Shown here: positions 1 through 6,407 of the stretch, one piece after another
Position numbering within the stretch: the stretch's first letter is position 1
How the letters are laid out: each line of letters begins with the position of its first letter
Virus record (IMG/VR): IMGVR_UViG_2737471848_000023
Coordinates: 1-6,407 of that record
Reading direction: 5' to 3' (one strand)
DNA from: a virus
Taxonomy: Duplodnaviria; Heunggongvirae; Uroviricota; Caudoviricetes
Length of the DNA stretch: 6,407 bases
Translations under genes and position numbers: made by a program
Notes under the pieces: generated by a model
Database searches by the model: none
Seen by the model: the letters and a program-made list of their open reading frames with translations, nothing else
What the model was told of the DNA's origin: nothing

Positions 1-153
1 GACGGATAACCACATCGTCGCCGTTCCGTCATCGGCCTGGCTGCACGGCAGGGGGATAGCCATACCCGCCATCGCCATTTGTGTACCCTTGCTGGTGGTC
101 TTTAACTGTGGGTCAGCCACCAGCCGCCCGTAAGCGGCTATCTGTGCTGTCAT
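1..153 (-). CDS. SSB-like OB-fold protein, N-terminal 51 codons only (gene continues beyond window start)
   Basis: ATG at 153..151 preceded by GGAGAGGTG; open to position 1 with no stop. Hand translation MTAQIAAYGRLVADPQLKTTSKGTQMAMAGMAI...TATMWLSV fits the N-terminal pattern of SSB-type OB folds (hydrophobic-G-R/N-L-x-x-D-P-x-L-R/K...T..G). Start overlaps the upstream stop as ATGA. Not in the ORF track because it is truncated. Confidence 0.5.
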   Translation of the reverse strand, partial: MTAQIAAYGRLVADPQLKTTSKGTQMAMAGMAIPLPCSQADDGTATMWLSV

Positions 154-464
154 GATTTCACCTCTCCGGTTTTAACGTTGATGGTTGTTACCTGTTCCGC
201 TTCGGCAATCTCCCGTTCTGTCAGCGTGGCAAAGTTTGCAGCTGCCGTTGTCATGAATGCGCTTATCAGGTCGGGATGTGCTTTCGCGTATCCTTCCCCC
301 GCATGGCGGTCTATCGTTCTGATTGCCACCTTTAAGGTATGCTCAGTCATGTCTAACGCTTTATATTTTGGCTCTGTTCTGTCTCTGCGAATTTTGGTCA
401 TTTGTCGCCCCTGATTCATGTTTTCGGCTGGCATGTTTGTTAAGTGATTTTGATGTATGCGCAT
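150..464 (-). CDS. hypothetical protein (104 aa)
   Basis: ORF from track; ATG at 464 preceded by GAGGGGGTG about 8 nt upstream; stop TGA at 152..150 overlaps next start (ATGA). No motif I recognise. Internal ATGs at 434, 419 and 401 are alternative starts. Confidence 0.55.
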   Translation of the reverse strand: MRIHQNHLTNMPAENMNQGRQMTKIRRDRTEPKYKALDMTEHTLKVAIRTIDRHAGEGYAKAHPDLISAFMTTAAANFATLTEREIAEAEQVTTINVKTGEVKS

Positions 465-510
465 TTATTTTCACCCCCTCGTTTAAAAAGTTTTTAGTTG
501 TGCCTCCCCC

Positions 511-736
511 CCCTCTACCCATCTACCCGAATGCTCATCATGTCAGTAATGGCGAGGCTTTCAGCGGGTAGATAGCTTTTGGGGCTCCTCTACCTGCCGT
601 CTACCCTGCTACCTGAAACTGATAAAATCAGGTAGAAGAGGTAGAGAGCTTTTATTAGCCTTCTACCTGGCCCTCTACCCACTTATCATGTTGAATAATA
701 TGTATTTATTTCATTCGGGTAGATGGGGTAGAGGGC
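511..736. repeat. iteron array, candidate replication origin
   Basis: At least 11 copies of the 6-bp core TCTACC / GGTAGA in both orientations: forward at 514, 522, 589, 600, 662, 674 (plus GCTACC at 608), reverse at 567, 631, 640, 718, 727. Adjacent same-orientation copies are 8-12 bp apart. An AT-rich segment (681..716) lies inside the array. Sits immediately 3' of the primase/helicase gene. Confidence 0.6.
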
Positions 737-748
737 TTTTACAAAAAA

Positions 749-2503
749 TTATAAAAACGCGTCGCAATCGTCTGTTGTAATTGCGTTGGTCTGCGTTACT
801 CCCTTAACTTTTCGCGTAATATATTCATGCCCGTAAACTTTCGCCGCTGGCTTCATGGCCTTGCTGAACTCAGCCACGTTTAGCGGTTTGCTCCTGCCTG
901 CGTATGCCATAAACGCCAGATAGACGCGGTAAAGGCTGTTCCTGGTCGTGTACTTCACTGAATCACCACCGCCACCCATCATCAGGCCGCGCGCTTCCTC
1001 CAGAAAATTCAGGAACTGGCAAAACTCAATAACCGGATCCGTCTGTTGCTTTATTGCCAGTGCTTCATCACCGTCACGCTGTTCCAGTAGTAAAGCCCTC
1101 GCCTTTTCAGGGTCGGTAAAGTTCGCCAGCAAGCGGCGGATAATCACAGGGATTTCAGCCGCGACCTTCTCCGGCAAATCCTTGTCCTTTTCTGCCTCGC
1201 TAACGATATTGTCAAAGCGAAAAATAACCCGACGACGTGCCACGCCTCCGGCCCGTTCGGTGAATATCATCGGGTTGTTGTTGGTCGCCAGCACCACCGC
1301 CCTGATTACCGCCGTGAAACGCTTTTCATATTTCGGGTTAATTTCCACGGGGTCGCCGCCCGTGATTTTCTTGATGCCCGTTCCTTCGCCTGTATATTTC
1401 GGCTGGTCAGCCAGGACGATAAGACGACTCCCGACAACCTGCGCGCGCCCTCCTGCATCATCGAGTGATGTCATCTCCGCGCTTACGGTGTTCTGTTTCC
1501 CTGCCAGAAGGCTGGCTATGTGTGTGAATGTACTTTTACCGCTCCCGCCGTCTCCGGTGGCCTCAATAAACATCTGCCAGTCGTACCGGTTCGCCATAAT
1601 CATGTACAGCGCGGCACATATACGCATCATCTTGCGCGGGTCTTTTCCGGCTGCGTGCTCAAGCCATTTATGAAAGTTTGGCGCGTTGTCGCGAATGTTC
1701 TCCCCTGGTGCTGGTGGCGTGTACTCAATGCCGTTGTGCGTGGTGATCCAGTTCTCCGGCGTGTGCGGGGAAAATTCCCCCGTTTTCAGGTCAAGCGCAC
1801 CATTGGCGAACGGCAGCAAATCGCCGGACGGCTCCCCCATTGGTTCGGCAATAACTTTTAACGCTTCAACGGCGTTATTGATCACGCGTTTGCTGAAAGT
1901 GGCCCTGTGCTCTGAATAGATCGCCACCATTTCGCGGCTAAGTTCCATTGTGCTGACCGGACACCATACCCCGCCGCGCCATACGTGAACGATTTCACTT
2001 TCCGGATGCACACAAACGCCATCAAATCGACCAGCAAGCATCTGTGCGCGTTCACTGTCCGCCATCTGCGAAAGTTGCGCCTTTTGCTTTACCGGAAGCT
2101 CAACGACCAGACCTTCAGAAAGATTCTGGCGCTCACGGGCCAGATATTCGCGCCAGTTCTCCACCTTCTGACCGTGCATTCCTTCGGGGTAAAATTTTGC
2201 ATCCTGTACGCCTGCCGCCGCCAGCTTCTGACCAATCTTTTTGGTCTCCACCAAGTCCAGTTCTCCTGCCTGGTACAGCCTTACGCGTTTTTTTCCATCA
2301 GGAACAATTTGCAGTGCATAAAGTTCGGCAAGCTGATTTGGCCCAAGCCACACAGGAGGCACATTATCGCCGGATGCGGGGCCGTCCTGCTCCTGCCACT
2401 GTTTTGCATGTGCCCACGCATCACTACCCGCGAAAATAATCACCTCTGTGTCTTTGTGTTTTATTCCGCGTGGCTGTTTTTTTACGTTCGGTGCCAGTTT
2501 CAT
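749..2503 (-). CDS. replication protein: primase/helicase with P-loop NTPase domain (584 aa)
   Basis: Long ORF with AGGGG 7 nt before the ATG at 2503. Walker A GDGGSGKST at about aa 317-325 (nt about 1529..1555) and Walker B-like LIVLAD at about aa 361-366, consistent with the SF3/P4-alpha/D5 family of phage-plasmid primase-helicases. N-terminal roughly 300 aa is a separate domain. Start overlaps the upstream stop (ATGA at 2503..2500). Confidence 0.9.
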   Translation of the reverse strand: MKLAPNVKKQPRGIKHKDTEVIIFAGSDAWAHAKQWQEQDGPASGDNVPPVWLGPNQLAELYALQIVPDGKKRVRLYQAGELDLVETKKIGQKLAAAGVQDAKFYPEGMHGQKVENWREYLARERQNLSEGLVVELPVKQKAQLSQMADSERAQMLAGRFDGVCVHPESEIVHVWRGGVWCPVSTMELSREMVAIYSEHRATFSKRVINNAVEALKVIAEPMGEPSGDLLPFANGALDLKTGEFSPHTPENWITTHNGIEYTPPAPGENIRDNAPNFHKWLEHAAGKDPRKMMRICAALYMIMANRYDWQMFIEATGDGGSGKSTFTHIASLLAGKQNTVSAEMTSLDDAGGRAQVVGSRLIVLADQPKYTGEGTGIKKITGGDPVEINPKYEKRFTAVIRAVVLATNNNPMIFTERAGGVARRRVIFRFDNIVSEAEKDKDLPEKVAAEIPVIIRRLLANFTDPEKARALLLEQRDGDEALAIKQQTDPVIEFCQFLNFLEEARGLMMGGGGDSVKYTTRNSLYRVYLAFMAYAGRSKPLNVAEFSKAMKPAAKVYGHEYITRKVKGVTQTNAITTDDCDAFL

Positions 2504-2799
2504 TTTTTACCCCTGAATACGTTAAGCATCTTTTTTATTTCCTGAATATTGGCGCGTGCTTTCTCCCTGCTGGTTGGCTTACTGCGGGGCGCTGCCTGTA
2601 CCAGAGAAAAATCACGCCGGAACTGATAAACAGGCATCACGCAATCATATTCGTAACCTTCACGGCGGTAGGTTACGCGCCGTTCTTCCACGCCCTTAAT
2701 CATTACCGTGCCGCCGTACTGGTCGCGGTAAATATCACCGCGCGTAAATTTAGGGTGAGTGTTGCCACTGGCAGTTAAGCCAGAATATTTAAGTTTCAT
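2500..2799 (-). CDS. hypothetical small protein (99 aa)
   Basis: ORF from track; GGAG about 10 nt upstream of ATG at 2799; stop overlaps primase start. Protein is basic and protein-like in composition. No family assigned. Confidence 0.7.
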   Translation of the reverse strand: MKLKYSGLTASGNTHPKFTRGDIYRDQYGGTVMIKGVEERRVTYRREGYEYDCVMPVYQFRRDFSLVQAAPRSKPTSREKARANIQEIKKMLNVFRGKK

Positions 2800-2804
2800 T
2801 ATTT

Positions 2805-3038
2805 TTATTCTCCGGTGTGCTGTTCTTTATATCTGTCGTGCAATAGATCTATTTCTTGCAGTTCCATTATTACAGGCTCAAGAAGCGTTATTAATGCCGT
2901 GGCAATTCTTGATTTTTGTTTGTCGCGTTCATTGTCGCCAAGTGTTTCAAGCCATATGCGAAATATTTCCATCATGTTTTCACTGTGAGAAAGTGCAAGA
3001 AATGCGCGGTCTATTGTTTGGTGGTAAATATCACGCAT
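2805..3038 (-). CDS. hypothetical small protein (77 aa)
   Basis: ORF from track; GAGGA 9 nt upstream of ATG at 3038; 8-nt overlap (ATGCGTGA) with the upstream gene stop. Acidic, predicted helical. Confidence 0.65.
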   Translation of the reverse strand: MRDIYHQTIDRAFLALSHSENMMEIFRIWLETLGDNERDKQKSRIATALITLLEPVIMELQEIDLLHDRYKEQHTGE

Positions 3039-3264
3039 GGCTTACATCCTCAGGAAATTTTCTTCTATAACGCGCCTCTGCCACATATTCCGCATAATCG
3101 GCGGCGATATTCAGTACATCAAGCCCCGTTGATTTATATTCTCTCGTGGAAAGTAAGAAAAAAGCCGCTCTAATAAGCTCTGGCATTGACGAAAGCGCAT
3201 CAGCCGCATCATCAGGAACGCCGGAAAATTCCTGTTTCAGGGAATTAAAACGATCATCACGCAT
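3031..3264 (-). CDS. hypothetical small protein (77 aa; start trimmed from track ORF 3031..3285)
   Basis: Internal ATG at 3264 is preceded by AGGGGGG about 6 nt upstream and lies 4 nt after the upstream gene stop (3257..3259). The track start at 3285 has no RBS and would overlap the upstream gene by 29 nt. Confidence 0.6.
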   Translation of the reverse strand: MRDDRFNSLKQEFSGVPDDAADALSSMPELIRAAFFLLSTREYKSTGLDVLNIAADYAEYVAEARYRRKFPEDVSHA

Positions 3265-3622
3265 GTTTACCCCCCTGAATGACATGATAACCGCAACTGG
3301 TCAGCAACTCGATAAATTCCGGCAGTGTGCCGAAACAGCAATCATCACGCAGCCGTTCGCAGGATACCTCGACGCCGTTTTCGTAGTGACTCACCATACA
3401 TCCGGTAAAATGCAGATCATCATCGTGATGGCTCGTTGACGGCTTAATCAGTCGCGCACGTTCCGCCAGTTCCAGCAATGCTTCAACGCTTCCGGCAATT
3501 GCACCATCCGGCAGGTGATAATTACGCACTATGCGCCCGTTCTCCACATTGACCAGCAACTGCCCGGTAAATTTCTCGTCAAACTGAATGCTGTTAAGGT
3601 CAGAAATTGACAGGTTATGCAT
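3257..3622 (-). CDS. hypothetical Cys/His-rich protein (121 aa; start trimmed from track ORF 3257..3640)
   Basis: ATG at 3622 is preceded by AGGAGG (minus strand reads ATGTGCAGGAGGTGCACC ATG). Begins MHNLSISDL. Five Cys (positions 75, 88, 95, 96, 110) and several His in the C-terminal half suggest possible metal binding. 8-nt overlap (ATGCATAA) with the upstream gene. Confidence 0.65.
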   Translation of the reverse strand: MHNLSISDLNSIQFDEKFTGQLLVNVENGRIVRNYHLPDGAIAGSVEALLELAERARLIKPSTSHHDDDLHFTGCMVSHYENGVEVSCERLRDDCCFGTLPEFIELLTSCGYHVIQGGKHA

Positions 3623-3839
3623 GGTGCACCTCCTGCACATCAGCCATGATAATTTTTCCGGCCTTATCCAGTGCCTGATCGGCTTTTAGCTGCACAAATG
3701 CTAAATAATGGAAGATGCATTCTGATTCTCTGGCTGCGTGTTTATGCGCCCTGTCAGCAATAACAGAAATATCAATCAGCGCGTGCATCAGTGTAGTGAG
3801 TGCGGCGGCGGTTGCGTCCGGTGTGGTTTTATTGTGCAT
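3615..3839 (-). CDS. hypothetical small protein (74 aa)
   Basis: ORF from track; AGGGGGAA 5 nt upstream of ATG at 3839; 11-nt overlap with the upstream gene; stop overlaps next start. Confidence 0.6.
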   Translation of the reverse strand: MHNKTTPDATAAALTTLMHALIDISVIADRAHKHAARESECIFHYLAFVQLKADQALDKAGKIIMADVQEVHHA

Positions 3840-4035
3840 AGGTTTCCCCCTGACGAATACGGGCAGCGAATACCATCACGCAGCCAGCCGGAGATTGCTG
3901 GCGTGCTTCCTGTTCGCTGGTGGCCTCAATGGTAATCACGCGCGGTTGTGCCGTGCTCAGGGCGATAAAACGCCAGATGTATTTATTCAGGTTGTGCGAG
4001 TCCCGCCCTTGCGGGTGTGTGGTATGATTTCTCAT
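3829..4035 (-). CDS. hypothetical small protein (68 aa), first gene of the leftward operon; tentatively Icd-like
   Basis: C-terminal part of track ORF 3829..4623. ATG at 4035 with GAGG about 7 nt upstream (GATTATCGAGGCAGCT ATG). Sequence MRNHTTHPQGRDSHNLNKYIWRFIALSTAQPRVITIEATSEQEARQQ... The Icd-like resemblance is from memory only and unverified. Confidence 0.5.
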   Translation of the reverse strand: MRNHTTHPQGRDSHNLNKYIWRFIALSTAQPRVITIEATSEQEARQQSPAGCVMVFAARIRQGETYAQ

Positions 4036-4132
4036 AGCTGCCTCGATAATCTTGCTATCGTTGGTGGTTAGAAGCCCTGCGAGTGGTAACGACACTTGCG
4101 GGGCTTTGCATTTATGCACCTTGATAACCTCA

Positions 4133-4168
4133 AGGTGTGGCCCACTATATTCTTTAGGTGTGGCCCAC
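4133..4168. promoter_or_regulatory. two perfect 13-bp direct repeats AGGTGTGGCCCAC, each containing the palindrome GTGGnCCAC; candidate operator
   Basis: Exact copies at 4133..4145 and 4156..4168, 23 bp start to start (about two helical turns). They lie between the divergent RHH gene and the leftward operon and overlap the predicted -10 and spacer/-35 of the leftward promoter. Confidence 0.55.
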
Positions 4169-4173
4169 GTCAA
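4144..4173 (-). promoter_or_regulatory. candidate sigma70 promoter for the leftward small-ORF/primase operon
   Basis: On the minus strand: -35 TTGACG (4173..4168), 18-bp spacer, -10 TATAGT (4149..4144). Predicted start near 4137 gives an about 100-nt leader before the ATG at 4035. Prediction by eye only. Confidence 0.4.
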
Positions 4174-4175
4174 GA

Positions 4176-4204
4176 GTTTTATTTGTGCTTTTTCTGTGTA
4201 TACT
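4176..4204 (+). promoter_or_regulatory. candidate promoter for the RHH gene
   Basis: -10 TATACT at 4199..4204 immediately preceded by TG; the -35 region (about 4176..4181) is a poor match, so this may depend on an activator or be mis-assigned. Back to back with the leftward promoter. Confidence 0.3.
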
Positions 4205-4234
4205 GTCCCCCACCAATCCAACAGAGGAATAGAA

Positions 4235-4414
4235 ATGGCAACGGGTACAACAAACGCAAAATCACAAGCTCTAAAGGCTCGTGTACCACACGAAATAGTA
4301 AACGAGATGGAATTAGTGAAAGAATCAGGCGAAAGCACATCACAATTCATCATTGCGTCAATGCAAGGCGAGATCAAACGCCGCCAGCGCCGCAAGGCCA
4401 AAGAGCAGGAATAG
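4235..4414 (+). CDS. small ribbon-helix-helix (CopG/Arc-like) DNA-binding protein (59 aa)
   Basis: ATG at 4235 with GAGGA 6 nt upstream; stop TAG at 4412..4414. Sequence MATGTTNAKSQALKARVPHEIVNEMELVKESGESTSQFIIASMQGEIKRRQRRKAKEQE has the RHH pattern: a short beta strand (KARVP), helix, G-x-S/T turn (SGESTSQ), second helix, basic tail. The only plus-strand gene in the window. Confidence 0.6.
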   Translation: MATGTTNAKSQALKARVPHEIVNEMELVKESGESTSQFIIASMQGEIKRRQRRKAKEQE

Positions 4415-4502
4415 CCCACCAGCAAGCCAGCACACTGAGCACATTGCCCACCAGACAGCAAATCGCTATGATGTTCGGGCTTATGTTTAGTGTTTTCCCA
4501 TT

Positions 4503-4530
4503 GGCGACCGCCACAGGTCGCCTTTGTTTT
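4503..4530 (+). terminator. intrinsic terminator (plus-strand orientation)
   Basis: Perfect 7-bp GC-rich stem GGCGACC (4503..4509) / GGTCGCC (4516..4522) with 6-nt loop, followed by TTTGTTTT (4523..4530). On the minus strand the hairpin is followed by AATGGGAAAACA, so it is not obviously a terminator for alpA. Confidence 0.6.
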
Positions 4531-4549
4531 ATGTGTCATATGCTCCCCT

Positions 4550-4759
4550 TTACGCTGCCTTACCTGCATTAATACGATCCCTGCTTTTAACCCATTCCAT
4601 AACCTCAGACTTAACCCAGCCAACAGAACGACCGCCGAGACTGATACGTGAGGGGAAGCGGCCCTGCTTTTCCATCTCGTAACGAGTTGTGCGGCAAACG
4701 CCTGTTAGCTCTCTGCATTCTTTTTCGCGGATTACACGATCTTCATTTATTTCGCGCAT
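4550..4759 (-). CDS. alpA: AlpA-family transcriptional regulator (69 aa)
   Basis: ORF from track; AGGA 6 nt upstream of ATG at 4759. Sequence VIREKECRELTGVCRTTRYEMEKQGRFPSRISLGGRSVGWVKSEVMEWVKSR matches the AlpA pattern (..TG.sr.T.Y......FP....LG.RsVGW...Ev.eWv..R). Lies directly downstream of int on the same strand. Confidence 0.9.
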   Translation of the reverse strand: MREINEDRVIREKECRELTGVCRTTRYEMEKQGRFPSRISLGGRSVGWVKSEVMEWVKSRDRINAGKAA

Positions 4760-5168: not shown

Positions 5169-6407
5169 TCAAGAATTTTGGGAGTAAATTCGCGGGGTCA
5201 TAACAACGATTTTTTCATCATTGTTCTGGAGAAGCTCGAGACGCTCACCCCATAGATTAAGAGCGTCACGTTTTGCATCAAGATAACGGGAGTGATTATA
5301 GACTCGTTGCATTCCTGGCAACTGGTGCGCGGTTAGCTGCTCCACTACATGAGGATCAACGCCTAAATCGTTCAGCATCGTTGTAAACGTGTGCCGGATG
5401 TCGTGCAACGTCCATGGGGCTTGATTAATGCGTCTGTGTGCCGTTCTTCCGTACTCTGATACGGATGATTGCCCTTTCAGTTCTCCGAGCAATAATCCCG
5501 TGTGCCTGTTCTGCTCCACCAGCTTCATGACAAACGGCAAGATCGCTTCCGGTATTGGCCTGAATATTGCTACCTTCGTTTTGCTGTGTTCTTTCGGCAC
5601 GGTCCAGAGCATTTCTTTAAAATCCCATTCCTGGACCTCAGAGCGTCTTAGCTCAGTGGTACGACATCCGAAGACAATCAGGAGGCGAATCAGGGCGCTG
5701 TAGTACGGTGGGTAAATTTTTTCATCAAGGGCGCGTAGTAATTCCCCAAGCTCCTTGTTTGTTAGTACGCGCTCGCTTATTTCTGCTTTTTTCCCAACAT
5801 CACCGACAACCATATCATCGAGAACGTTGGTAATTGCGTAGCGTCGTTTTCGGCAGTACTTAAGCGCCTGTTTGCACACCTGTAGCAAAAATCCGGCTGA
5901 TACCGGATTACGCTTAGCAAGCTGGTCAAAACAGGCCAGCCAGTGGCGTAGCTCGCATTTTTCCAGTGGCATAGCGCCAATCTGGCTAATTATGTGTTTA
6001 TTGATCCGGCTTTTCAGTGATTCGTAGTCAGTGCGCTTTTCCTTTGCGTACGATTCAAGCCAGTAAGTGAGAGCTTCCTTAACCGTCACGGGGGCTAAAG
6101 CGTCCTGTACAGCATGATTAAGTTCATAGCGCGGATTTTTCCCCTCAGCCAGCCAGGCGCGACACTGTGCCGCTTTTTCCCTGGCAGCTTTCAGGCTCAG
6201 ATCGGGATAATTGCCCAGCCTCAGACGTTCCGGTGATATCTGCCTACCAGTTCCGGCCCTGTAAGTGAAATACCAGGTTAACAGGCCATTGGTTGAATGC
6301 CTTACGCTAAGGTTGCCACCATCATTAAAAAAGGTGCTTTTTGTGGTTGGTGATCCGCTTAATTTTCGTAAAAGAGTGTCGCTAAGTCTATGAATTGCCC
6401 TGCTCAT
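5169..6407 (-). CDS. int: tyrosine site-specific integrase (412 aa)
   Basis: Full ORF with ATG at the last 3 nt of the window. N-terminal arm-type domain (NDGGNLSVRHSTNGLLTWYFTYR...RLRLGNYPDLSLKAARE). C-terminal catalytic region with HDIRHTFTTML (H-x-x-R) and the tyrosine region YNHSRY. Overall layout matches P4/CP4-type integrases. Confidence 0.95.
   Translation of the reverse strand: MSRAIHRLSDTLLRKLSGSPTTKSTFFNDGGNLSVRHSTNGLLTWYFTYRAGTGRQISPERLRLGNYPDLSLKAAREKAAQCRAWLAEGKNPRYELNHAVQDALAPVTVKEALTYWLESYAKEKRTDYESLKSRINKHIISQIGAMPLEKCELRHWLACFDQLAKRNPVSAGFLLQVCKQALKYCRKRRYAITNVLDDMVVGDVGKKAEISERVLTNKELGELLRALDEKIYPPYYSALIRLLIVFGCRTTELRRSEVQEWDFKEMLWTVPKEHSKTKVAIFRPIPEAILPFVMKLVEQNRHTGLLLGELKGQSSVSEYGRTAHRRINQAPWTLHDIRHTFTTMLNDLGVDPHVVEQLTAHQLPGMQRVYNHSRYLDAKRDALNLWGERLELLQNNDEKIVVMTPRIYSQNS

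What the first reader, a model, noticed from the sequence alone, without database searches (positions are those of the whole stretch)
1..464. SSB-like OB-fold gene translationally coupled to an unknown gene just past the origin
The truncated ORF at 153..1 begins with a strongly SSB-like N-terminus and is coupled by an ATGA overlap to a 104-aa protein of unknown function. An element-encoded SSB next to the origin suggests a self-contained replication module. The 104-aa partner is uncharacterised.
Basis: partly seen in the sequence, partly recalled or inferred. Interest (0 to 1): 0.4.

Follow-up and report, generated by a model that had tools for sequence, protein, structure and literature searches.

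The report
Satellite island's SSB and small partner
The window ends inside a genuine single-stranded-DNA-binding protein gene that follows a small uncharacterised helical protein just after the replication origin of a known type of E. coli phage-satellite island, an arrangement already present in the prototype island and in many E. coli genomes, so it is ordinary except that the small partner's function is still unknown.

Summary
The minus strand 153..1 encodes the first 51 residues of an SSB. Its ATG overlaps, as ATGA at 153..150, the stop of an ORF at 464..150. That ORF starts 50 nt from an iteron origin at 514-732. A 96.6%-identical E. coli locus shows the full 140-aa protein. It passes the curated Pfam SSB and TIGR00621 cut-offs and ends in ...DNIPF, the SSB C-terminal tip.

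The window is an EcCICFT073-type Gram-negative phage-inducible chromosomal island: int, alpA, small genes, DUF4222, D5_N/DUF5906 primase, ori, partner, ssb. CFT073 itself carries the same partner-ATGA-ssb pair. Published work already places SSB with primase and ori in these islands and shows that pri-rep plus ori alone replicate a plasmid. The ssb is optional: it was present in 43 of 60 sampled E. coli genomes.

The partner belongs to phrog_1231, a widespread family with no Pfam or PDB match. It is 83 or 104 aa; the start is unresolved. It is confidently predicted as a helical hairpin with a conserved tip, IDxxFGxGYAKxHPEL. In 9 of 17 non-enterobacterial contexts it lies within three genes of a primase, spanning five Pfam families, and never next to an SSB. 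I infer a replication accessory; this is not shown. Interest is low.

The parts
1..153 (-). 5' end of ssb: the first 51 codons, truncated by the window edge
   Evidence: Translation. PHROG 44 SSB, E 1.3e-11. 47/51 identical to a full-length 140-aa SSB in L001 that passes the Pfam and TIGR00621 cut-offs and ends in DNIPF. The Trp54 equivalent (W48) is visible in the fragment.
150..153 (-). ATGA overlap: stop of the partner ORF and start of ssb
   Evidence: Read directly from the sequence. Conserved in L001 and L013.
161..167 (-). Shine-Dalgarno GGAGAGG for ssb, inside the 3' end of the partner ORF
   Evidence: Sequence, with 7 nt spacing to the ATG. Function is inferred.
150..401 (-). Partner gene, short form (83 aa). 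It belongs to the phrog_1231 family and is predicted as a helical hairpin.
   Evidence: phrog_1231, E 4e-52, covering aa 22-103. RefSeq annotates 83 aa in L001. 738 representative relatives at E<=1e-3. AF2 pLDDT 90.5, helices 11-34, 38-41 and 43-81. Synonymous changes exceed non-synonymous ones in the C-terminal half.
402..464 (-). Possible 21-codon N-terminal extension of the partner, giving the 104-aa form
   Evidence: ORF list. ATG 464 follows an invariant AGGGGGT block by 8 nt. It coincides with the annotated start of the CFT073 and Shigella alleles. The 21 residues are not conserved in the family.
473..500 (-). Invariant block AAAACTTTTTAAACGAGGGGGT between the iterons and the ORF. It is a Shine-Dalgarno and/or an origin-flanking cis element.
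   Evidence: Identical in 5 of 5 divergent islands. Role is inferred.
514..732 (.). Replication origin: 11 TCTACC/GGTAGA iterons in oppositely oriented pairs, with an AT-rich core at 685-714
   Evidence: 11 of 11 window copies lie here against 1.5 expected. Repeat families. GC 0.17 at 685-714. Same layout as the published E. coli PICI origins (PMC6092414).
749..2503 (-). pri-rep: a 584-aa primase-helicase, the initiator that uses the origin
   Evidence: Pfam D5_N 1e-14, DUF5906 5e-10, Pox_D5. PHROG 864 DNA primase, E 5e-172.
2500..2799 (-). DUF4222 small protein, overlapping the primase start by 4 nt
   Evidence: Pfam DUF4222, 1.5e-24. ORF coordinates.
4550..4759 (-). AlpA-family regulator
   Evidence: Pfam Phage_AlpA, 7.9e-18.
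5169..6407 (-). Tyrosine integrase of the island
   Evidence: Pfam Phage_integrase and Arm-DNA-bind_3.

Best explanation
**What the window is.** The window is the left two-thirds of an EcCICFT073-type Gram-negative phage-inducible chromosomal island (PICI). One long minus-strand operon runs int - alpA - small genes - DUF4222 - pri-rep - ori - partner - ssb.

**What is shown.**
- The truncated gene is a bona fide bacterial-type SSB. Its relatives have an OB fold, keep the equivalents of Trp54, Phe60 and Trp88, have a short linker, and end in a D(D/N)IPF tip.
- It follows the small gene with an ATGA junction and has its own Shine-Dalgarno.
- The small gene belongs to a widespread uncharacterised family (phrog_1231) predicted as a helical hairpin.

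**What is inferred.**
- After helper-phage induction the operon is read through the origin, since no promoter or terminator was found in between.
- Pri-Rep opens the AT-rich core between the iterons.
- The island's own SSB coats the exposed ssDNA. Through its conserved tip it recruits host SSB-client proteins. This boosts replication when helper and satellite both replicate, but it is not required.
- The partner protein is most likely an accessory of the primase-helicase/origin module, for example modulating the initiator or bridging it to host factors. It is probably not a specific partner of SSB. It is kept in islands that lack ssb, and in distant bacteria it sits beside primases of five different families and never beside an SSB.
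For: - **SSB identity:**
- **Island identity and synteny with the prototype EcCICFT073:**. c1499/c1500 are the capsid and decoration genes in PMC6092414.
- **Origin:**, and PMC6092414 Fig. 2 legend.
- **pri-rep plus ori are sufficient for replication:** PMC6092414.
- **SSB already grouped with Primase, DUF5906 and mapped origins:** PMC10111431.
- **ssb is optional:** 43 of 60 sampled genomes carry it under the 3' end of the partner and 17 do not. The O157 island L002 has other genes there.
- **Partner family:**
- **Primase neighbourhood of distant relatives:** DUF5906 (L014, L022, L030, L032, and L026 below threshold), Zn_ribbon_DnaG/Toprim (L009, L018), Zn_Ribbon_Prim+DUF3987 (L020), DUF927 (L004, L029), RepB_primase (L032)..
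- **No SSB in any distant locus:**
- **No promoter or terminator in 1-1000:**
Against: - No experiment in the literature I could search addresses either gene. The lambda-interference screen of EcCICFT073 started at c1499 and did not include them.
- The window holds only 51 codons of ssb. The full length, OB fold and tip are inferred from 92-97% identical relatives.
- His55 of E. coli SSB is Leu here, so the oligomeric state is unknown.
- 8 of 17 distant contexts of the partner family are not next to a primase. These include prophage ends, a position upstream of a portal gene, and a position between CoA-transferase genes.
- Fold searches gave only generic helical hairpins. The replication-accessory role therefore rests on gene neighbourhood alone.
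Confidence: 0.6

Rival explanations
1. The partner is not a replication protein. It is the first gene of the island's late (packaging, interference or regulatory) zone, for example a small regulator or a helper-phage-directed factor. Its position next to ssb is incidental.
For: - In PICIs the region after the origin usually carries packaging and interference genes (PMC6739421).
- In L002 it is followed by terS-like and capsid genes.
- Family members also occur in phages just upstream of a portal gene (L023/24) and at prophage ends (L015, L016/17).
- One member is fused to a MUG113/T5orf172 domain typical of Bro-type phage regulators.
Against: In 9 of 17 distant contexts it lies within three genes of a primase, often in small integrase islands with no late genes visible in the fetched flanks. 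Several of these have overlapping stop and start codons with the primase or its neighbours. There is no sequence similarity to Rpp structures or anything else in the PDB.
Confidence: 0.25
2. The island's SSB serves a purpose other than the island's own replication. Candidates include titrating or hijacking host SSB-client proteins through its DNIPF tip, interfering with helper or host DNA metabolism, or protecting or recombining ssDNA after transfer, as proposed for plasmid leading-region SSBs (the plasmid comparison is my own background knowledge).
For: - pri-rep plus ori replicate without it (PMC6092414).
- It is dispensable in about 28% of sampled islands and decayed to a remnant in L003.
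- The tip is conserved while the linker is short and divergent.
Against: It sits directly after the origin in the same operon as the initiator. The literature groups it with replication genes. It has no hit to defence-system models. Nothing here tests interference.
Confidence: 0.12
3. The truncated ORF is another OB-fold protein such as PriB rather than SSB, or one of the two ORFs is not a real gene.
For: The 51-aa fragment alone is below the Pfam SSB threshold. The partner has no Pfam family.
Against: - Full-length relatives pass two curated SSB thresholds. They match 26 solved SSB structures by sequence and carry the SSB C-terminal tip that PriB lacks.
- The partner has 738 representative relatives, a pLDDT 90.5 model and synonymous-biased divergence.
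Confidence: 0.03

Closest known systems
EcCICFT073, the prototype Gram-negative PICI of E. coli CFT073 (Fillol-Salom et al. 2018, PMC6092414)
   Same: Same gene order: int, HTH/AlpA, small genes, DUF4222, P4-family primase, iteron origin, partner homolog (85 aa), ssb (136 aa) with an ATGA overlap. In relatives this is followed by capsid-like and decoration genes.
   Different: Different integrase and integration site; the best matches to the window's int lie next to cspD/clpS, as in O157. The N-terminal allele of the partner differs and there is a 34-nt indel at its start. The best whole-window matches reach 93.8% identity over 92% of the window or 96.6% over 84%. CFT073 has a PerC gene after ssb; the window ends before that point.
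Bacterial homotetrameric SSB (E. coli Ssb; Pfam PF00436 / TIGR00621)
   Same: N-terminal OB fold, equivalents of Trp54, Phe60 and Trp88, and a C-terminal D(D/N)IPF tip.
   Different: Only 27-29% identical to E. coli Ssb. 136-140 aa with a much shorter linker. His55 is replaced by Leu. Encoded on a mobile island and optional there.
phrog_1231 (PHROGs v4, unknown function)
   Same: The partner matches the whole profile at E 4e-52. All 67 sampled distant relatives match it too.
   Different: The family has no described function, no Pfam model and no solved structure. The enterobacterial members carry a basic N-terminal tail and a conserved C-terminal extension (..EAEQVTTINVKTGE..) that distant members lack.
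Satellite phage P4 replication region (alpha primase-helicase, ori/crr, Cnr)
   Same: An integrase-AlpA/Vis-primase satellite with an iteron origin and a small protein encoded beside the initiator gene. That Cnr regulates alpha is my own background knowledge.
   Different: The partner shows no similarity to P4 Cnr/ORF106 (hhalign probability 0.1%). P4 has no ssb. The PICI authors argue the two element types evolved independently (PMC6092414).

Membership tests
SSB (PF00436 / TIGR00621) | OB-fold domain scoring above the curated family threshold | tested here: inconclusive
   The window fragment alone scores 14.4 bits against a cut-off of 26, but PHROG 44 gives E 1.3e-11. The 92%-identical full-length relative scores 60.8 bits (cut-off 26) and 63 bits (cut-off 53.95), so it passes. 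For this window the result is limited by truncation.
SSB (PF00436 / TIGR00621) | Acidic/hydrophobic C-terminal tip (DDDIPF-like) that binds client proteins | not testable with these tools
   The C-terminus lies outside the window. Relatives end in GDNIPF (L001) and GDDIPF (CFT073).
SSB (PF00436 / TIGR00621) | Aromatic ssDNA-stacking residues (E. coli Trp40, Trp54, Phe60, Trp88) | tested here: met
   The Trp54 equivalent is present in the window fragment. The Phe60 and Trp88 equivalents are present in relatives. Trp40 has no equivalent.
SSB (PF00436 / TIGR00621) | ssDNA binding and tetramer formation | not testable with these tools
   Needs protein biochemistry. His55, important for the E. coli tetramer (my own background knowledge), is Leu here.
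Gram-negative PICI (Fillol-Salom 2018 criteria) | Integrase, AlpA, pri-rep and an origin downstream of pri-rep, in one orientation | tested here: met
   Pfam hits and coordinates. Same order as EcCICFT073.
Gram-negative PICI (Fillol-Salom 2018 criteria) | [quoted passage not shown] | tested here: met
   TCTACC pairs in both orientations at 514-732 and an AT-rich core at 685-714. Description in PMC6092414.
Gram-negative PICI (Fillol-Salom 2018 criteria) | Helper-phage-dependent induction, packaging and transfer | not testable with these tools
   Experimental property. Shown for EcCICFT073 only (PMC6092414).
phrog_1231 | Full-length match to the family profile | tested here: met
   E 4.1e-52, residues 22-103 on profile positions 1-82 of 83.
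Rpp (redirecting phage packaging; PDB 6HLK/6HN7) | Sequence similarity to solved Rpp/TerS-like DNA-binding domain proteins | tested here: not met
   No PDB sequence hit better than E 2.7. The profile search also found nothing. In EcCICFT073 Rpp is c1503, several genes further on.
P4 Cnr (ORF106) | Sequence or profile similarity to P4 Cnr | tested here: not met
   hhalign probability 0.1%. The DUF4222 protein in the Cnr-like position upstream of the primase also shows no similarity.

The most novel reading that the evidence does not exclude
phrog_1231 proteins, including the partner ORF here, are a general and so far unrecognised accessory subunit of mobile-element primase-helicases. Under this reading the conserved hairpin tip (IDxxFGxGYAKxHPEL) docks on something all these initiators share: a host replisome component, or the ssDNA/SSB interface. 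That would explain why the gene travels with five unrelated primase families, and why enterobacterial PICIs placed an ssb right behind it.
Probability: 0.3. Interest if true: 0.5.

Novelty: already known. Interest (0 to 1): 0.2.

Why it matters
As stated, the finding adds little. An island-encoded SSB beside the PICI origin is annotated in many RefSeq E. coli genomes (43 of 60 sampled), sits in the prototype EcCICFT073, and is mentioned in the satellite literature.

The open question is the small partner. It is one of the most conserved genes of the enterobacterial PICI replication zone. It belongs to a family with hundreds of diverse relatives and has no assigned function. Here it shows a repeated neighbourhood with primases of five families. 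If it turns out to be a common adaptor of satellite initiators, it would help explain how satellites replicate without a full replisome of their own. No experiment on either gene was found in the searchable literature.

Tried and rejected
- **Rpp identity for the partner.** No PDB sequence or profile match. Rpp is c1503, further downstream.
- **P4 Cnr analogy.** No similarity for the partner or for the DUF4222 protein.
- **Pfam on 67 distant relatives and on longer fused members.** Nothing informative except one MUG113/T5orf172 fusion.
- **Defence-system models (PADLOC).** No hits for the partner, the SSB or the other small proteins.
- **Rfam.** No RNA family anywhere in the window.
- **An SSB-tip-like tail as a family feature.** Only 1 of 252 distant members ends in EDLPF, so I dropped this idea.
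- **Using the published lambda-interference screen as negative evidence.** I first assumed it covered these two genes. The plasmid list shows it began at c1499, so they were not tested.
- **Start of the partner at Met22.** I first favoured this from the protein alignment. The DNA alignment shows that the upstream ATG/Shine-Dalgarno site is the conserved one across alleles. I now leave the start open.
- **Phage collection.** No match to window 1-800.

Full report
**1. What is in the sequence**

On the minus strand, 153..1 is an open frame that runs off the window. It encodes MTAQIAAYGRLVADPQLKTTSKGTQMAMAGMAIPLPCSQADDGTATMWLSV. Its ATG (153..151) overlaps the TGA (152..150) of an ORF listed as 464..150, 104 aa. 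A GGAGAGG Shine-Dalgarno lies at 167..161, inside the end of the upstream ORF.

Upstream of the ORF lies a dense iteron field. All 11 copies of TCTACC in the 6.4-kb window fall in 514-732. Only 1.5 are expected, and 0 of 200 shuffles reach 11. The copies are arranged as oppositely oriented pairs around an AT-rich core at 685-714 with GC 0.17.

The rest of the window, all on the minus strand, encodes:
- a D5_N/DUF5906/Pox_D5 primase-helicase (2503..749);
- a DUF4222 protein overlapping its start;
- several small unknowns;
- an AlpA regulator;
- a tyrosine integrase.

**2. The truncated gene is an SSB**

The 51-aa fragment alone is below the Pfam SSB threshold (14.4 bits against 26). It matches PHROG 44, 'single strand DNA binding protein', at E 1.3e-11.

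Window 1-800 has megablast matches in 1671 of 5426 complete E. coli genomes, and 369 of them cover at least 80% of it. The best is 96.6% identical, and RefSeq annotates 'single-stranded DNA-binding protein' under the match.

In the best locus (L001) the gene is 140 aa and 47/51 identical to the window fragment. It ends ...NDDPYGDNIPF. It passes both curated thresholds: Pfam SSB at 60.8 bits (cut-off 26) and TIGR00621 at 63 bits (cut-off 53.95). It also matches 26 distinct solved SSB sequences.

Aligned with the chromosomal E. coli Ssb it is 27-29% identical. It keeps the equivalents of Trp54, Phe60 and Trp88 and the D(D/N)IPF tip. It has a much shorter linker and Leu in place of His55. The window-versus-CFT073 comparison of the 51 codons shows 17 synonymous and 12 non-synonymous codon differences, with a third-position excess. 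PriB or another OB-fold family is excluded as far as sequence can tell.

**3. What the element is**

The CFT073 locus (L013) between roxA and phoQ has the same order: integrase, HTH, small genes, DUF4222, P4-family primase, gap, an 85-aa hypothetical, a 136-aa SSB with a 4-nt overlap, PerC, a 68-aa hypothetical, major capsid, head decoration.

The capsid and decoration genes are c1499 and c1500 of EcCICFT073 in Fillol-Salom et al. 2018 (PMC6092414). The module in this finding is therefore part of the prototype Gram-negative PICI.

[quoted passage not shown] It also shows that the cloned pri-rep-ori segment alone maintains a plasmid in DH5alpha. [quoted passage not shown]

The window itself is a mosaic relative. 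The best whole-window matches reach 93.8% identity over 92% of the window or 96.6% over 84%.

**4. The ssb is optional; the partner is not tied to it**

I took an evenly spread sample of 60 of the 1580 genomes that match the partner gene. In 43 an SSB is annotated under its 3' end. In 17 it is not, and in nearly all of those the match breaks off 12-21 nt before the partner's stop.

In an O157:H7 island with a similar integrase (94.0% identity over 80% of the window), the partner is followed by two tiny ORFs, a terS-like gene and a capsid gene. In a Shigella flexneri island only a remnant of ssb is left.

ATGA-type overlaps occur between most neighbouring genes of this operon, so the coupling is a general property of the operon. 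No sigma-70-like promoter or intrinsic terminator was found in 1-1000. This fits read-through from pri-rep across the origin, though that is an inference.

**5. The partner protein**

It has no Pfam, NCBIfam, PADLOC or PDB sequence match. It matches phrog_1231 (unknown function) at E 4e-52.

A word-indexed search found 158 close relatives, all Escherichia, Shigella or Citrobacter 'hypothetical proteins'. An exhaustive profile search of 1.84 billion representatives found 738 relatives at E<=1e-3. They are mostly 65-145 aa and share a core A(I/V)xxIDxxFGxGYAKxHPEL(I/V)AAFMxTAAxDF. None of 67 sampled has an informative Pfam hit, and all 67 hit phrog_1231.

With that deeper alignment AlphaFold2 gives a confident model (pLDDT 90.5). 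It is a long helical hairpin with helices at 11-34, 38-41 and 43-81. The nearly invariant residues I30, D31, G37, Y38, A39, H42, P43 and L45 sit at the hairpin tip.

Fold searches return nothing informative. In E. coli alleles the C-terminal half is nearly invariant, with synonymous changes exceeding non-synonymous ones. The N-terminal, basic part is allelic.

**6. Start codon**

RefSeq and the PHROG profile start at Met22 (ATG 401, 83 aa), which has an AGGGG Shine-Dalgarno 6 nt upstream.

A DNA alignment of five divergent islands points the other way. The block AAAACTTTTTAAACGAGGGGGT is invariant. The ATG 8 nt after it (window 464) is the only possible start, and the annotated one, in the CFT073 and Shigella alleles. 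Those alleles lack the 34-nt segment that holds ATG 401.

The 21 extra residues are not conserved in the family. I leave the start open. The conserved core is the same either way.

**7. Gene neighbourhood of distant relatives**

I examined 17 non-enterobacterial contexts. In 9 the gene lies within three genes of a primase or primase-helicase, usually in a small integrase (and often AlpA) island and often with overlapping stop and start codons:
- DUF5906 or D5_N: L014, L022, L030, L032, and L026 below threshold;
- Zn_ribbon_DnaG/Toprim: L009 and L018/19;
- Zn_Ribbon_Prim+DUF3987: L020/21;
- DUF927: L004, L029;
- RepB_primase: L032.

The other contexts are prophage ends (L015, L016/17), a phage position just upstream of a portal gene (L023/24), a toxin-antitoxin-rich short contig (L005), a position next to an autotransporter (L008), a position between CoA-transferase subunit genes (L006/7/10), and two uninformative ones.

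None of the distant loci encodes an SSB detectable with the island SSB as query. The partner's recurrent companion is therefore a primase, not an SSB. That is the basis for proposing a replication-accessory role, and it is the only basis.

**8. What is not known**

I found no experiment on either gene. I had assumed that the lambda-interference screen of genes 'after the ori' (PMC6739421) covered them. The plasmid and primer tables show the series starts at c1499. The P4 Cnr analogy fails at the sequence level. No paper mentions phrog_1231.

**9. Verdict**

The arrangement is a standard, already annotated part of a well-studied satellite family. The SSB is an optional accessory there, because the minimal replicon is pri-rep plus ori.

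The only open point of some interest is the function of the small helical partner. My best guess, at roughly one chance in three to one in two, is an accessory of the primase-helicase/origin module.

Interest 0.2; novelty: already known.

Noticed in passing
window 473-500 (minus strand); alignment A4: A block, AAAACTTTTTAAACGAGGGGGT, between the last iteron and the partner ORF is invariant in five islands whose flanking sequences and partner alleles differ. It may be more than a Shine-Dalgarno, for example an origin-flanking or regulatory site.
   Followed up: partly
window 402-435 versus L013/L003 (alignment A4): A 34-nt indel separates two allele types of the partner gene. Alleles without the segment start only at the upstream ATG (MRTSGKL.. 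and MHTSGKF..). Alleles with it, including the window, have two candidate starts.
   Followed up: yes
L006 5986-6249, L007 5986-6249, L010 about 6001-6183: In three Neomegalonema MAGs a phrog_1231 relative sits between the A and B subunit genes of a CoA-transferase, far from any visible mobile-element gene.
   Followed up: partly
P0198 and P0199 (distant phrog_1231 relatives): One 149-aa member ends in ...YPEDLPF, which resembles an SSB C-terminal tip; this is 1 of 252 members. Another member is fused to an N-terminal MUG113/T5orf172 domain.
   Followed up: partly
L001 12749-14504; L003 6624-6785: Signs of decay in relatives. In L001 the primase is annotated as frameshifted while the partner and ssb are intact. 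The Shigella flexneri island keeps only a remnant of ssb.
   Followed up: no
window 3031-3285, 3257-3640, 3615-3839 (minus strand): Three consecutive small proteins (84, 127 and 74 aa) each match different parts of phrog_2512. This suggests mosaic or duplicated small genes in the zone between alpA and the primase. The 74-aa one has a weak Plasmid_RAQPRD hit.
   Followed up: no
window 3829-4623 (minus strand): A 264-aa TTG-start ORF overlaps the 3' end of alpA by 74 nt. It has no Pfam scan and no PADLOC hit. Whether it is a real gene, and where it starts, was not examined.
   Followed up: no
window 447-470 and 688-711: The AT-rich stretch around the upstream candidate start (ATG 464) is 71% identical to the AT-rich core of the origin (repeat family D5). 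This may be chance.
   Followed up: no
L013 8335-8583 (CFT073); L001 11109-11312: What follows ssb differs between relatives. CFT073 has a PerC-family regulator and then a 68-aa phrog_3255 protein. L001 goes straight to the 68-aa protein and the capsid gene. The window ends before this point.
   Followed up: no
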